From: Microbotryum violaceum
Taxonomy: Eukaryota
NCBI GenBank assembly: GCA_001244265.2
Contig: CDLV01000005.1
Location: forward strand, 992,001 to 1,056,000
DNA: 64,000 nt
Direction of reading: 5' to 3'
Numbering within the stretch: position 1 is the first letter of the stretch; every line of letters begins with the position of its first letter. Shown here piece after piece: positions 33,143-40,161 of this stretch. The notes below the pieces were generated by a model. The model worked only from the letters and a program-made list of their open reading frames with translations. It searched no databases and had not been told where the DNA came from. The position numbers and the translations under genes are program-made.

Positions 33143-33775
33143 GGGCGACGAATGGGTGGACGACAGTAAGCCGGAAAGGACAGGGTGGGGAAAGAGAGGG
33201 AGAGAAGTAAAGACTTGGAAGGCACAAAGACAAAGTTGTCCTGCATATTTAGGGAGAGGTCGAGATGTTGAGATAGCCTCGAATCTCGCGCGAGCGAGCG
33301 AGCCGCCATTGACTGCTGCGAACCACTGCCGACGCTGCAACACTAGTCCAAGCCGGGCGGACGGGGACTTGGAGTGCCCGGTCTCGCCGAGCAAAAGGTC
33401 GAGTGTTAATGCGCGGGGGCTCATGTTGTAGCGGTGGGTAATGAAAACGCCCGGACCGCAGTGAGCTTCAGTCCACCAGGAACACGCACGGGCCCTCTCG
33501 TCAAATGATCGGTGTCGTTCGGCGCTTACCGGAAACGGCAGAATCCGAGTTCGTTCGGGTAAAGCGTGCGCGAGCAGACGCGCCCGGCGCGCACGGGCCT
33601 GTCGCTTTCGTCATTTCATTGCTCCAAATTCCCTCGCGTGCGCTCGGCTGCTGGCGAAGGTCTCGAATATTGAGGAGGCGATACAGACGGTGTGGCATGA
33701 TGACATAATCTGCGGGGTTATAAACTTGAAGTAGGTAGTCGTCTTGACGAATGAAGAGTTGGACTCGGTGAGTTG

Positions 33776-33837
33776 AGCGCTGCACGACAATGCAGTTGTT
33801 TCGTTGTCAAAGGACAAACTCATCAGGCGCTTGCGCT
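33776..33837 (-). ncRNA. Type I hammerhead ribozyme (3' pLTR copy)
   Basis: Minus strand: AGCGCaaGCGC-CUGAUGA-GUUUGUC cuuu GACAAC-GAAA-CAA cugca UUG-UC^GUGCaGCGCU. All core nucleotides and stems I-III are present. Confidence 0.92.
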
Positions 33838-35053
33838 TCTAAGGCCTTTCACCAGAAAGAATTCGCTATTAGCTGCTAAATTCTATTAGTCAGGAGCTAA
33901 TGAGAGAATAGATTCTAATTCGAATTTCAGACTTAGAAGGAATTTCTCAGAGGCCAGCCATGACTAATAAGTGGAGGTCAGGTGGTCTGTGCGAGCTCAA
34001 GAGCTGGACAGCTGAGTAAGTACCCCTATTCCAGGGGTGCTCTGACCTCCAGCAGATTAATAGACATTACTAGGTCTAGTAGTGGAAGTTGTAATACCTC
34101 CACTTGGAAAAACAAATGAGTTTTGAATATTAAAATATTTTTGACTCAGTAACATCAGGTCGTGTTGATGCAAGTGGAGTTGATGTAATCCCATACATCT
34201 GAAAACCAAAAGCCACCGAAAATTGAAGAAAATTCTGGTGTATAACGCTGTCCAAGTCAAAAGACTTGGATGTACATGGTACACGAGTTATAATCAATCT
34301 AGAGTCGAAAAATTCTCAAATTTGAAAAAGAATTCTTCGAGCGTCTAGTACAACTGATATGAAACCGTGCTAAGGTTCTCAGTGTATCTAAGATGTTACA
34401 GCTCCTTCTGCCACCAGGAGAAGGAGCTATCTGTTATGCTACTACAGAGCCATAATGGACTCCAGATAATTTCAATCATAACTTCAAGTACCCTCTCACG
34501 GAAGATTCTCAATGATTCTCCGAGTAGAACAAGAGAGTACAAGACGTTATGATCTCAGTGTATCTGTTTAACGTAGTTCCACTTATTCACGGCATGAATA
34601 AGGTTTTAAGTTTTCTGGTGAATCTTTTCAAAGTCAGATCATCTGCTCCTCCCTGCTGGGGTCCCATTGCCGGGGTGCAAAGTAAGTTACACTAGATCTT
34701 TCAATCTAATGTAACATGTTATGCACCCAAGTCCAAGGATGTAGCCAGTAGTCAAAGGAGATCATCCGATCTCCAGCGTATTTGTGCCAAAGAGCGGGAC
34801 GAAAAGCTGAAAGAGGCTCTACGCTGGGAATCAGAAGACTATGACAATGTCAAGATGCAATACATCCTGTTGCGGAGATTGTGTATGTTAAGTAACATGT
34901 AGAGTCTCAAAGATGTTTAAGCAACATCCAGCAACAGATCAACGTTAGACCTAATCTTCTCAGAATGAGAGACCCAGTCTATTGTAAGAGCTCTTCCTTT
35001 CAGAGAGAATAGACTGCTTGAGGTATAACTCGCGATTAGAATTAGGGTCTAAT
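33838..35053. ncRNA. Candidate long structured RNA (3' region of PLE)
   Basis: AT-richer tract with no long ORF, packed with 7-11 bp perfect inverted repeats, nested stems and one long-range 11-bp pairing. Confidence 0.6.
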
Positions 35054-37805
35054 TCAAACGGCAGTTGATGATAATGTATTGGCCGTGGAGAGGACATTCT
35101 TGTTGAATCTATTCACGATCTCTCCCAAGTTACGAGTTCGGGAGCGTGCGTTGATAATCCTTCGGGACGAAGTCCCAGTGAGTTTGGTCCGAAGATCAGG
35201 ATTCCAATCTTCAACAGTCTTTGTCAGGATGAGACCTGCATTGACCTGGTTCCAAACTGGATTATAATCGCTGTGAAAGATCAAGGGTGTTTCCCCCGTG
35301 TTCTCAATTTGCTTCCTTTCAAGAGCAACTGGACGAACATCAGAGTACTGCACAACCTTGAATGCCTTCCTTAGCCATCGGGTAGGATATCCCCGAGCTC
35401 TCAACCTCAAATAGAAGCGAGTCATCTGATTGATGTACTCGTCTCTTGAGGAGGAGAGTCGAATGTATCTGATAAGTTCTCCTTTCACAAAGGCAGACTT
35501 CACTGATTCGGGGTGTTCCGATGACCACGGTATATATTGATATGAGTTGAAGTCCTTTTGGTACACTCTTGTAGAGAGAGACCATCGGGAACAGTCCTTC
35601 GGGTCGGGGTTCTTCGATATAAAGGCATCGAGGAAGGGTAAACCGTTGGAACTGACTTCAGCATCGAAGACTAAGGACGGGTGAAGTTGAGCAAGTGCAG
35701 ATATACATTTGTCAACATTCGACCGCGGGCCCTTTACTATAGCTATTACGTCATCGATGTATCGCCCATAGAATATGAGGTTAGGAGTTTCCATGAGACG
35801 AGCCTCTCTTTCAAGTGCTCCAACGAAAAGGTTGGCATAGGTAGGTGCAAGGGCAGTGCCCATTGCCGTCCCTGAGACTTGATGAAAGAGTTTCCCTTGG
35901 AATCCTAGGTAGCTGTTGTTCAACACAAACGAGACGAGCTCATAAATGAGGTCGCCGGCTGTTTGCTCCCTGAGTGTTTCGGTATTGAAAAACTCAGACG
36001 AGGGAGCAGAGCCGAAACCGAAGTTCTCTGAGCCCGAGTCAAGGAAATCCTCGAACATTGGGGCGAGGATCGGCGGCAATCTTTGAGAGAAAGGCAGATG
36101 CTCTTGTGTATAGAAGTGTGTCCCTAGCCATCGCATGCACCTTGCTCCCTCGTCTGAAGGGAGGTTGGTGTACATGCTTTGGATGTCAGCTGTGATGATC
36201 CACAGCTCCTCATTAACCTCTGGGAGTTCAAGGTCTGAAAGTCTTCGGAGAAGATCCTTCGAGTCTTGAATAATCCAGGGGAAGAGTTGGAGCATAGGCT
36301 GCAGTAGCCAATCAGCATATTTGGAGACATGTGATGTAACCCATGAGTGCGAGGGCACTATGGGCCTGCCAGCCAGCTTGACTTTGTGCATCTTTGGAAG
36401 CATATGAAATTCAGGAAGTTGAATTTGATCTTCGTTGAGTTGATGCACGAACTTCTCAGCGCTAAAAGGAGTGTATTGGTACAGTGACGCAAAGGAAAAG
36501 GCTTTGGAGATAAGTCTTTTCCTGCGGTACATCAAGGTTTTGATGATTGCGCGCAGCCGTACCATTTTCAGTTCAAGATACGTTGAGGAGTTCAAGATAC
36601 GTTGAGGCAACGTACCAGTCTTTTGGAAGGACTGTAAGACCTAGGTTTTTATCAGCAGCTTTAACAAGAACGTTATTGCTGTTCATAAATCCTTCCAACG
36701 ACGGTAAAGTAGCCCCGGCGAGGTTGGGTCGCCAACTTGTGGAATCGACACCATCCAAGGCCTGACGCAAGAGCAAGAAGCCCCGGTCAAGCCCTTTTTC
36801 GACAGTCTCATCTGCTTTGGGCCAGATGTAAGGTATGGTAGATTTGACATGAAGTCCTGGGACATATCTGTCTCTTCCCGTCTTCACTGGAGCATTGAGA
36901 AATCGGCTTCTTCGGCGAACTGTAGTTCTCAGTTCTTTAAAGGACTCCAGAGGAGCTACGACATTGATCTTGGGTCTGATAATGAACTTGAGATTGAGAG
37001 AAAGGAGCCTTTCGATTGCCGAAGGGATCTCAACCTTGAACGGGTTGAGAAGCTTTGGGCGTTTCATCTTCGTTTCAAGCCACAGCTCGTTTGAATGTAT
37101 GAATACGAAAAGATCACGTTGTTCTTTTGACAGAGCAAGAGTAGCAACGGGCCATGTAGTACCATCTCTAACTAGGAAGTGGAGTGGTAGATCTAAATCA
37201 ATGGCAAGAAGAGGAGAGGGATTCACATTCGTGAAGTCAACTCCAGTGGAGTTGAACCTCATGGATTGTGAGGGGTCATTGATAAATTCTCCCACAGATG
37301 TAATATGATTCGACCGAACAGGAAGTATCAATTGCCATCTATCCTTCCTCTTTCCTTTCCTCGAGATACTACGAGCATTTAGAATGGAATCACTAGATAC
37401 AGATTCCCTTAAGTGGTCTTCTGCTTCTTTGCGTTCCCTGCCTTTCCTCCTTGCGTCATTGCGCGTTTGCGACTGTTGACGTTCCCATTCTTCGAAAGAG
37501 TTTGGGTCTGAGGTTGAGGGCGAGCTGGGAGAGTCGAAGGACGCTTGGCAGAGTTGCCTTGTTTCTTCGAAGAATCTCCCTTCGCGGTCGAGGTTGAACC
37601 TCGTTGCGAAGTGCTCGTCTGAGTGCTCGTGGTCGGAGTGTTGCTCTTCTTCGATGGTTGTTTCGAATTGGAGCGACCTTGAGATTGTTGGATGCGCGGA
37701 ATGTTGTACCCTTTGAGCTGAAATAGCAAAAGGGAACACCGATTCAGTTCGATCATAGTCATCGAGCATGGTCGGACATTCAGACCGAGAGAGGGGACGC
37801 ACCAT
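35054..37805 (-). CDS. Penelope-like reverse transcriptase, frameshifted by a 19-bp tandem duplication at 36570-36607
   Basis: LLSLNLKF, KAADKNLG, LPKMHK..GRPIV, ITADIQSMYTNLP, QVSGTAMGTALAPTYANLF, YGRYIDDV, LPFLD, YQK..YIPWSSEHP..KSAFVKGELIRY..LRARGYP. Ends without an endonuclease domain. Confidence 0.93.
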
Positions 37806-39499: not shown

Positions 39500-39570
39500 G
39501 GGTTATAAACTTGAAGTAGGTAGTCGTCTTGACGAATGAAGAGTTGGACTCGGTGAGTTGAGCGCTGCAC
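39500..39570 (-). repeat. 5'-truncated direct copy of the pLTR starting at the hammerhead cleavage site
   Basis: Identical to 33715-33785 (71 bp). Confidence 0.9.
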
Positions 39571-39572
39571 TA

Positions 39573-39621
39573 GCGCCTGATGAGTTTGTCCTTTGACAAC
39601 GAAACAACTGCATTGTCGTGC
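39573..39621 (+). ncRNA. Type I hammerhead ribozyme (inverted pLTR copy)
   Basis: GCGC-CTGATGA-GTTTGTCCTTTGACAAC-GAAA-CAACTGCATTG-TC^GTGC, cleavage predicted after 39617. Confidence 0.92.
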
Positions 39622-40161
39622 AGCGCTCAACTCACCGAGTCCAACTCTTCATTCGTCAAGACGACTACCTACTTCAAGTTTCTAACCCTGTGGCCTCTAA
39701 ATTCGCCTTCATCGGCGCGCACAGGCACACGATAGAAGCCGTCTCATGCAATTGATCTTGTGCCTCGCGACCCCTCGCGGCCGTCGGCCGTCGGGCCTTT
39801 CGTAATCGAGAATAGCCGACAGAAAGCGGAGGTTCGCGAGGTCTGTGCAGAAGTTGCAACGGTTTGTGCCGCAAATCTGGCCGTCTGGATGACACGCGGG
39901 CTTTTTGTTGTAGTAATGAGTGCGACGGAGGATTATGGGGATCGGATCCGCAAGTTGTCGGGGTCGGATAGCTTCGTGCCTTTTATTTTTTCGACAATTC
40001 GCACAGTGGTTGGTAATGGCGCGATCCCACTGATCTCGATCGAGATTTTGATGAGCCATTACTCCTTGCTCTCACTACTTCTCGGAAGGAGATCACGAGA
40101 ACACGTCTGGATTCGGTTGCAGCGCTGATGTAGTTTGTGCAGATGAGAAAATTGTGCAAGC

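What the first reader, a model, noticed from the sequence alone, without database searches (positions are those of the whole stretch)
33715..39688. Endonuclease-less Penelope-like element at an internal locus, bounded by inverted hammerhead pLTRs ending in TAACCC
Seen: the RT ends without a GIY-YIG domain. The termini (33715-33831 and 39572-39688, 117 bp, 1 mismatch) are inverted and read 5'-GGGTTA...TAACCC-3'. All three pLTR copies stop at TAACCC, two extending to TAACCCTA or CTAACCCT. The flanks are ordinary genes, with no telomeric array. Known: Coprina/Athena-type EN-deficient PLEs attach to telomeric G-rich overhangs. Inference: both ends of an internal double-strand break were primed by the RNA 3' end (twin priming), so the element healed a break and came to resemble a TIR element. 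The flanks TGCG (33711-14) and TGTG (39689-92) may be a short mutated TSD (weak).
Basis: partly seen in the sequence, partly recalled or inferred. Interest (0 to 1): 0.78.

Follow-up and report, generated by a model that had tools for sequence, protein, structure and literature searches.

The report
Telomere-type retroelement inside a fungal chromosome
A retrotransposon of a kind that normally attaches only to chromosome ends sits between two ordinary genes in the middle of an anther-smut fungus chromosome with its end sequence on both sides, which suggests that it patched a DNA break from both broken ends.

Summary
This is a Coprina-like, endonuclease-less Penelope element of Microbotryum, 1.03 Mb from the nearest contig end, between two genes that are consecutive in two other Microbotryum species. 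It has two direct pLTRs and one inverted pLTR (117 bp, 1 mismatch), all ending in TAACCC. Five truncated family copies lie within 25 kb of contig ends. The partial 5' pLTR starts at the predicted hammerhead cleavage site. A 428-bp Copia patch with an inverted arm interrupts the 5' region. The RT is frameshifted in this assembly. The direct-plus-inverted layout is standard for endonuclease-bearing PLEs, but a 2013 paper says fungal endonuclease-less PLEs lack it, so this is a counterexample. Insertion at a break is likely. There is no credible target duplication. The scan had noted a repair-type LTR-retrotransposon patchwork elsewhere in this genome, but no element like this one. Verdict: new variant of a known kind, interest 0.5.

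The parts
33715..33831 (-). 3' pLTR, ending ...TTTATAACCC; left junction with host DNA
   Evidence: a contig of run X14 runs from the flank 37 nt into it
33776..33837 (-). Predicted minimal hammerhead ribozyme: core CUGAUGA 33826-33820, GAAA 33802-33799, GUC 33788-33786, predicted cut between 33786 and 33785; stem III only 2 bp
   Evidence: hand-set structure evaluates to -11.1 kcal/mol; pattern count 2 against 0 in 30 shuffles; not the minimum-energy fold; no Rfam hit
33832..35053 (-). 1.2-kb AT-rich 3' region without a long ORF; its last 464-1030 bp are shared with the truncated copies near contig ends
35054..36604 (-). RT gene, C-terminal part (ADIQS, GTAMG and YGRYIDD motifs, thumb); ends without GIY-YIG
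36571..36607 (-). Near-perfect 19-bp tandem duplication at the RT frameshift; run X14 has a different, 8-letter-longer sequence here
36588..37814 (-). RT gene, N-terminal frame (conserved from about 37259; DKN motif as ADKNLGL)
   Evidence: 48% identity to the second family's RT
37718..37802 (-). 85-nt GT-AG intron, spliced in run X18
37907..38599 (-). ORF1, 230 aa, no family match; may be a damaged remnant of a longer ORF (inferred)
38606..38779 (-). 174-nt GT-AG intron in the 5' leader, spliced in run X18
38964..39111 (-). Copia LTR fragment next to the primer-binding site, lacking the LTR's last 7 nt (not an integrase-made end)
   Evidence: whole-length matches of 97-100% among 23 Copia loci
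39112..39290 (+). Copia pol fragment (protease region, PF22936), opposite in sense to the LTR piece
   Evidence: 100% to 4 and 99.4% to 19 of 23 Copia loci
39285..39391 (-). Inverted arm of the Copia pol fragment (mirror of 39156-39262), starting at an AACGT microhomology
39392..39499 (-). 108-bp segment found once in the genome; shares the CCTTCGCAGCC motif with sequence just beyond the Copia patch, so probably the element's own 5' leader (inferred)
39500..39570 (-). Partial upstream pLTR, 71 bp; begins at the base after the predicted hammerhead cut and ends TAACCC-TA
39571..39571 (.). Single base between the partial and the inverted pLTR; untemplated, or the GUA allele seen in the C20, C5 and C6 copies
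39572..39688 (+). Inverted 5'-truncated pLTR, 117 bp, ending ...TTTCTAACCC; right junction reads AGGGTTAG on the other strand
   Evidence: contigs of X1 and X14 join its last 29 nt, and one of X18 its last 30 nt, to the flank
32159..33142 (-). Left flank: host gene of unknown function (100% to MVLG_01042 over 91% of the query)
40059..41888 (-). Right flank: host MBOAT/wax-synthase-family gene

Best explanation
A Coprina-like endonuclease-less PLE inserted at a double-strand break that it did not make, in the gap between two host genes, and both broken ends were used as primers. Shown: anatomy, absence of GIY-YIG, internal position, ancestral adjacency of the flanks, fixed TAACCC 3' ends. Inferred: (1) the template RNA had its 5' end made by hammerhead cleavage; (2) the left DNA end was extended from the TAACCC site through the whole element to that cleaved end; (3) the right DNA end was extended from the same site for 117 nt; (4) the two cDNAs were end-joined across one extra base. 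The primers were the broken ends with at most one telomere-like repeat (added by telomerase, or copied from the RNA's own TAACCCTA). The Copia patch is repair-type captured cDNA, taken up either during this synthesis or in a separate event. The copy is frameshifted here but still gives spliced ORF1-region RNA.
For: 7 of 8 distinct pLTR ends in the assembly stop at TAACCC plus 0-6 telomere-like bases. No GIY-YIG at this locus, while the same library finds it in 3 of 3 endonuclease-bearing relatives tested. RT lies in a 19-row clade (SH-aLRT 99) holding the named fungal hits and none of the 9 GIY-YIG rows (quick tree, 54 rows chosen from 120 hits plus the query). Flank orthologues are consecutive in M. 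silenes-dioicae (g11630/g11631) and M. intermedium (4685/4684). No TSD. The inverted copy differs from both direct copies at the one base that, with the next flank base, gives 8 nt of telomere-type sequence. The partial pLTR starts at the predicted cut site. An endonuclease-bearing PLE extends both strands of its target in vitro and starts inside its RNA (PMC11167929). The host has a telomerase RNA-binding domain match.
Against: No empty-site DNA was seen in the 4 runs laid, so deletion, microhomology and added bases are unknown. The C at the diagnostic base is also the allele of the C20/C5, C6 and C7 copies, so it need not come from a primer. All three window pLTRs share a private allele at 33774, as direct DNA copying would also give. 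Run X14 shows other-copy alleles in the 3' kilobase, which suggests gene conversion and weakens allele arguments. The hammerhead is minimal, is not the minimum-energy fold (z -0.22) and is untested. The extra base matches the GUA allele, which would move the boundary 1-2 nt upstream of the cut. In the Anolis PLE, hammerhead cleavage was not needed in vitro (PMC11167929). No listed contig spans the central palindromic junction 39570-39572. One event only.
Confidence: 0.5

Rival explanations
1. One-ended priming plus fold-back. Only the left end primed reverse transcription. At the RNA's 5' end the nascent strand switched to the start of its own cDNA, helped by the self-complementary hammerhead stem I, copied 117 nt back to GGGTTA and was then ligated to the right end.
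For: The private 33774 allele is in all three copies; the junction lies in stem I sequence, with AGCGC on both sides. The Copia patch shows an inverted arm made in the same direction of synthesis. Fold-back insertions of 2 to about 150 bp at breaks are documented in yeast (PMC11724301, passages seen). Self-priming was proposed for inverted PLE junctions (PMC3846280).
Against: The inverted copy has C where both direct copies have A. By my inspection no fold-back register gives the observed junction without 1-2 unexplained bases.
Confidence: 0.28
2. Not a spontaneous break: another element's nuclease (a LINE endonuclease, for example) made a staggered cut that the endonuclease-less PLE used, and the short duplication has since decayed.
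For: The second PLE family's full RT copy (C4:705-708 kb) sits inside a multicopy LINE-like repeat; against 14 uninterrupted copies it shows a degenerate 8-9-bp duplication.
Against: No duplication longer than a mismatched 4-mer here, although the pLTRs and Copia pieces are 97-100% identical to their relatives, so little time for decay.
Confidence: 0.1
3. A telomere-attached copy was moved inward by DNA recombination or by fusion of healed ends, and the inverted pLTR marks the second end.
For: Five family copies lie within 25 kb of contig ends; internalisation of terminal chains is discussed for Terminons (PMC6431247, section read). One M. intermedium MBOAT paralogue is numbered 21 genes away, and M. 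saponariae has two gene numbers between the flanks.
Against: The flanks are consecutive genes in two species. No telomeric array and no subtelomeric cap motif lies at this locus.
Confidence: 0.07
4. The inverted 5' structure is an assembly artefact.
For: Palindromes and high-copy Copia pieces are hard to assemble; bin 39316-39599 has no depth in X14, X18 and X20; most junction contigs overlap the repeat side by only 24-30 nt, under the tool's 31-nt bridging rule.
Against: Contigs of three runs join a pLTR end to the right flank in the inverted orientation; X14 bridges the left junction by 37 nt; X1 has depth in 30 of 30 bins and a contig over 39368-39529 with no differences (X1 may be the assembled strain).
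Confidence: 0.05

Closest known systems
Coprina (fungal endonuclease-less PLEs), e.g. Coprina-1_Alen of Ascochyta lentis (PMC13159263) and the M. violaceum Coprina mentioned in PMC8557442
   Same: RT without GIY-YIG; two ORFs; terminal repeats; copies at chromosome ends; an insertion between RT motifs A and B' (about 40 aa against P0074) that fits the IFD-like region reported for M. violaceum Coprina.
   Different: All 13 Coprina-1_Alen copies are at chromosome ends, flanked by telomeric repeats and direct repeats. This copy is internal, has at most one repeat unit at each junction and has an inverted pLTR. I could not align it with named Coprina sequences.
Endonuclease-bearing Penelope/Poseidon and Naiad insertions (e.g. 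Pen2a_Av, PMC3846280; Fig. 2 legend of PMC8557442)
   Same: Two direct pLTRs plus an adjacent inverted, shorter pLTR at the 5' end; retained introns; hammerhead motif in the pLTR.
   Different: Those have a GIY-YIG nuclease and often 8-10-bp TSDs. This one has neither and ends in a reverse-telomeric hexamer. PMC3846280 states that fungal endonuclease-less PLEs do not share that organisation.
Athena/Terminon elements of bdelloid rotifers (PMC6431247)
   Same: Hammerhead followed by a short reverse-complement telomeric stretch at the 3' end; 5'-truncated polarised chains at chromosome ends.
   Different: Only about 6 kb, no accessory genes; 65 nt lie between the predicted cut and the hexamer; truncated copies are capped by an unrelated tandem-repeat element rather than by telomeric repeats in this assembly.
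Ty cDNA capture and fold-back insertions at double-strand breaks in yeast (PMC11724301)
   Same: LTR-region and internal retrotransposon fragments in mixed orientation, an inverted arm with microhomology, no integrase-made ends.
   Different: Here the patch lies inside another retroelement; whether host end-joining or the PLE RT made it is unknown.
L1 twin priming and endonuclease-independent L1 insertion (recalled, no call)
   Same: Use of existing breaks; both ends primed; inverted product.
   Different: In L1 twin priming the second primer anneals inside the RNA and inverts the 5' part. Here both cDNAs start at the same 3' site.

Membership tests
Penelope-like elements | PLE-type RT (DKN motif, core motifs, thumb) | tested here: met
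   Motifs read; 27% over 458 aa to an RT-GIY-YIG protein, E 4e-39; 9 of 120 homologues carry PF01541
Penelope-like elements | pLTRs in direct and/or inverted arrangement | tested here: met
Penelope-like elements | Hammerhead motif in the pLTR | tested here: met
   Core pattern with stems I-III, 2 hits against 0 in 30 shuffles; no Rfam match
Penelope-like elements | Hammerhead self-cleaves | not testable with these tools
   Only indirect: the boundary of the partial pLTR
Penelope-like elements | Retains spliceosomal introns | tested here: met
   Two GT-AG introns spliced in run X18 and present in the DNA
Coprina / endonuclease-less PLEs | No GIY-YIG domain | tested here: met
   also absent from the second family's intact RT P0004 and from P0005, P0008, P0010
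Coprina / endonuclease-less PLEs | 3' end is reverse-complement telomeric sequence | tested here: met
   7 of 8 distinct ends; TTAGGG in the host from PMC4469406; no array in this assembly
Coprina / endonuclease-less PLEs | Copies at chromosome ends with the 5' end outward | tested here: inconclusive
   Met for the C4, C5, C6 and C7 copies relative to contig ends; the C20 copy lies on a 44-kb contig that repeats the C5 region; not met for this copy; contig ends carry no telomeric arrays
Coprina / endonuclease-less PLEs | RT groups with named Coprina elements | tested here: inconclusive
   Groups with fungal GIY-less RTs; no named Coprina, Athena or TERT rows were available
Endonuclease-bearing PLEs (Penelope/Poseidon, Neptune, Naiad, Chlamys) | GIY-YIG at the C- or N-terminus | tested here: not met
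TIR DNA transposons | Transposase and TSD | tested here: not met
   No transposase match in the element's ORFs; no TSD
Ty1/Copia insertion (for the patch) | Complete LTR ends and a TSD | tested here: not met
   LTR lacks its last 7 nt; the other end lies inside pol

The most novel reading that the evidence does not exclude
The endonuclease-less PLE RT works as a two-ended break-repair polymerase. It starts at an internal telomere-complementary site of a hammerhead-cleaved (linear or circular) monomer RNA, reads it slightly more than once round, which explains why the upstream pLTR is exactly the 71 nt after the cut, and jumps onto Copia templates on the way. Such rare internal insertions are the long-lived master copies that feed the truncated copies at chromosome ends. 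In this assembly both near-complete RT copies are internal, and a second family copy (C4 end) is also joined to Copia sequence beside the primer-binding site.
Probability: 0.22. Interest if true: 0.78.

Novelty: new variant of a known kind. Interest (0 to 1): 0.5.

Why it matters
How PLEs make their direct-plus-inverted ends, and whether their hammerheads cut in vivo, are open questions; PMC8557442 names the first and PMC11167929 found no reads at the cut site in Anolis. An element with no nuclease that still has the inverted layout shows that the layout does not need its own GIY-YIG. A boundary at the predicted cut is genomic evidence, from one event, that a cleaved RNA was the template. The locus also gives a direct test, because a sister species appears to have the empty site. 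It bears on the idea that telomerase-like RTs heal breaks as well as ends.

Tried and rejected
Inversion-breakpoint idea: raised when the M. intermedium hits were 21 gene numbers apart, dropped when a paralogue numbered 4684 proved adjacent to 4685 and the M. silenes-dioicae genes proved consecutive. A predicted 52-nt intron at 37980-38031 is not spliced in X18 and gave no longer ORF. TSD search negative. Rfam: only microRNA-precursor matches far below gathering scores, caused by the palindromes. Unconstrained folding did not give the hammerhead. ORF1: no Pfam match, ESM Atlas best score 0.77, below a useful level, and no tblastn match to the second family's ORF1 region. Telomere arrays: 0 matches to (TAACCC)3, none at the 40 contig ends read, 5 matches to (TTAGGG)2 against 13 control matches. 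Empty site: none among 4 runs laid; X18, chosen as a possible empty-site strain, turned out to behave as RNA, and X20 is low-depth; parts without cover there are not evidence. No RNA holder was listed. The careful tree did not finish; only the quick tree is used. Gladyshev and Arkhipova 2007 could not be read. Paper searches that found no report of this arrangement in a fungal element: Coprina+Penelope (5 papers, 4 listed), Microbotryum+Penelope (9 papers, 8 listed), Penelope+twin priming (2 papers). The library lacks most subscription papers, and I opened no supplements; those of PMC8557442 may hold the M. violaceum Coprina sequence.
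Full report
Host and position. The window is C3:992001-1056000 of a 33-Mb, 20-contig genome; C3 is 3.06 Mb, so the element lies 1.03 Mb from the nearer end. The left flank protein is 100% identical to MVLG_01042 of Microbotryum lychnidis-dioicae over 91% of the query, so the host is an anther smut of that species or a very close one. TTAGGG was reported at five scaffold ends of that species (PMC4469406, passage seen), and a telomerase RNA-binding domain match lies on C10. 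This assembly shows no telomeric arrays.

Observation. The element reads on the minus strand. From its 5' side: an inverted pLTR (39688-39572), one base, a 71-bp direct partial pLTR (39570-39500), 108 bp found once in the genome, a Copia patch (39391-38964), ORF1, the RT gene, a 1.2-kb 3' region and the 3' pLTR ending at 33715. The inverted arms match over 117 bp with one mismatch, and all three pLTR copies end in TAACCC. The proposed TSD has no support beyond one mismatched 4-mer.

RT and family. The RT has PLE motifs and aligns with an RT-GIY-YIG protein up to the thumb region. Pfam finds no GIY-YIG in 4 element ORFs, finds it in 3 of 3 nuclease-bearing relatives tested, and a genome search gives one match, on C14. 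In a quick tree of 54 rows (the query, the top 20 hits, all 9 GIY-YIG hits, the named hits and every fourth remaining hit of 120), the RT sits in a 19-row clade with the Microbotryum, Rhodotorula, Armillaria, Rhizoctonia, Mucor and Rhizopus sequences (SH-aLRT 99). All 9 GIY-YIG rows lie in a separate 16-row clade with the animal sequences. No named Coprina was in the tree, so I call it Coprina-like. PMC8557442 (passages seen) mentions Coprina elements in M. violaceum, so the family is probably already catalogued. The RT is split by a frameshift at a 19-bp duplication; run X14 has a sequence 8 letters longer at that place.

Other copies. Five 5'-truncated copies of 464-1030 bp (92-98% identical) lie 92 bp to 25 kb from contig ends. 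Those on C4, C5, C6 and C7 have the 3' end pointing inward, as expected for terminal retrotransposition; the C20 copy is on a 44-kb contig that repeats the C5 region. A decayed 73% pLTR near the end of C13 faces outward and lacks TAACCC. Counting C5 and C20 once, 7 of 8 distinct pLTR ends stop at TAACCC, followed by 0-6 further telomere-like bases. Run X20 adds a further junction at the same base. The genome-wide RT search found one copy of this family's RT, one full RT of a second family and one fragment.

Is it a simple insertion? The flank orthologues are consecutive in M. silenes-dioicae (g11630, g11631) and M. intermedium (4685, 4684), have one gene number between them in the published M. 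lychnidis-dioicae annotation (01042, 01040) and two in M. saponariae (04473, 04476). Gene numbers are indirect, but M. silenes-dioicae has RT copies of this family annotated on three other contigs, so an empty site there is likely. In contigs of public runs, X14 bridges the left junction by 37 nt, and X1, X14 and X18 join the last 29-30 nt of an inverted pLTR to the right flank, which is under the tool's 31-nt rule. No listed contig spans the central palindrome, and no empty site appeared in the 4 runs laid. Sixteen of 24 listed runs hold 0.81 or more of the sampled words; by my arithmetic that needs the single-copy body, but only X1 and X14 of these were laid.

Hammerhead and 5' boundary. The pLTR has CUGAUGA, GAAA and GUC with stems I and II and a 2-bp stem III. 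The pattern occurs twice in the window and not in 30 shuffles, but Rfam and free folding miss it. The partial upstream pLTR begins at the first base after GUC. With five family boundaries spread over about 1.2 kb, a hit within 2 nt has roughly a 1-2% chance (my estimate). The caveat is that the extra base at 39571 matches the GUA allele of other copies, which would shift the boundary by 1-2 nt. A cleaved monomer RNA read from an internal TAACCC site slightly more than once round would give this structure; internal initiation is shown for an Anolis PLE (PMC11167929, first quarter and passages read), where cleavage was not required.

Copia patch. The 428 bp are an LTR piece lacking its last 7 nt, a pol piece in the opposite sense, and an inverted arm starting at an AACGT microhomology. 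The pieces are 97-100% identical to current Copia copies. The two arms differ at one CpG position, and each arm matches some of the 23 loci exactly, so the arm may be a fold-back or may come from a second molecule. Such patches match Ty cDNA capture and fold-back at breaks in yeast (PMC11724301, passages). An earlier scan note (e1-7146965, not checked by me) describes a similar patchwork in this genome without a PLE, so host repair alone could have made it. The C4-end copy is also joined to Copia sequence beside the primer-binding site.

Expression. Run X18 is not recorded as RNA but shows spliced joints, including a host intron. Its contigs cover about 37300-38990 with two introns removed. 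What it does not cover is not evidence.

Mechanism. Insertion at a pre-existing break follows from no nuclease, no TSD and preserved gene order. For the inverted arm, two-ended priming (0.5) is favoured by the telomere-type AGGGTTAG at the right junction and by the fact that a PLE protein extends both target strands in vitro. Fold-back copying of the first cDNA (0.28) is favoured by the shared private allele and the stem I junction. X14 shows other-copy alleles in the 3' kilobase, so gene conversion blurs both arguments.

Comparison with what is known. An inverted truncated pLTR at the 5' end is described as frequent in nuclease-bearing PLEs (PMC8557442; PMC3846280, passages). The second paper also says that nuclease-less PLEs can prime at double-strand breaks and that fungal ones do not share the direct/inverted organisation. 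The 13 Coprina copies of Ascochyta lentis are all terminal (PMC13159263, passages). The hammerhead-plus-telomeric 3' end is known from Terminons (PMC6431247, one section read). So every part is known, and the combination in a fungal nuclease-less element was not found in my searches. The founding 2007 paper was not available, and the statement on L1 twin priming is recalled.

Verdict. Real feature; Coprina-like PLE by tested features, with clade membership not directly tested; new variant of a known kind; interest 0.5. The most novel reading, an RT that repairs breaks from both ends on a ribozyme-processed template and founds internal master copies, has probability about 0.22.

Noticed in passing
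G000, 25 places on 12 contigs (L090-L114): A non-coding element of 84-bp GTGCAC-rich tandem units with one fixed end (...GATACGTATATAC, followed by T in 23 of 25) lies within 35 kb of contig ends. The fixed end points inward in 23 of 25 (the other two are on C20, which repeats the C5 region). It joins many different sequences, including the PLE at two truncation points, and no PLE continuation lies beyond it. It looks like a polarised element added to chromosome ends, in an assembly with no TTAGGG arrays.
   Followed up: partly
L002/L003 (C20, C5) and L004 (C6): These copies share the same 5' truncation point and cap junction but have different 3' flanks, as if a cap-plus-PLE chimeric unit was re-attached at a new end.
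   Followed up: partly
L063:3810-7927 (C4:704.8-708.9 kb): A second endonuclease-less PLE family with an open 776-aa RT frame is also internal. It is inserted in a multicopy LINE-like repeat with a degenerate 8-9-bp duplication, has no inverted pLTR and no TAACCC end.
   Followed up: partly
L005 (C4:2909240-2909332): A truncated copy is joined through a 3-nt microhomology to antisense Copia gag start, primer-binding site and LTR; a second PLE-Copia junction near the primer-binding site.
   Followed up: partly
window 33768-33843 (+): Run X18 shows a GT-AG joint skipping 76 nt over the hammerhead on the antisense strand, on contigs with alleles of the other copies: possibly a spliced antisense pLTR transcript.
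   Followed up: no
window 39659-41000: An X18 contig with the MBOAT intron removed runs into the inverted pLTR, so host transcription may read into the element.
   Followed up: no
L063:1847-2425: A 579-bp palindrome (89%) with a central poly-T run lies upstream of the second PLE family copy.
   Followed up: no
G000 C7:1988560, C10:8640, C14:22825, C14:1058558: Four of the five (TTAGGG)2 matches in the genome lie within 23 kb of contig ends, three in telomere polarity; possibly relics of end healing.
   Followed up: no
L077 end (C10) and L055 start (C13): Both contig ends carry the same tandem repeat of about 70 bp, different from the cap element.
   Followed up: no
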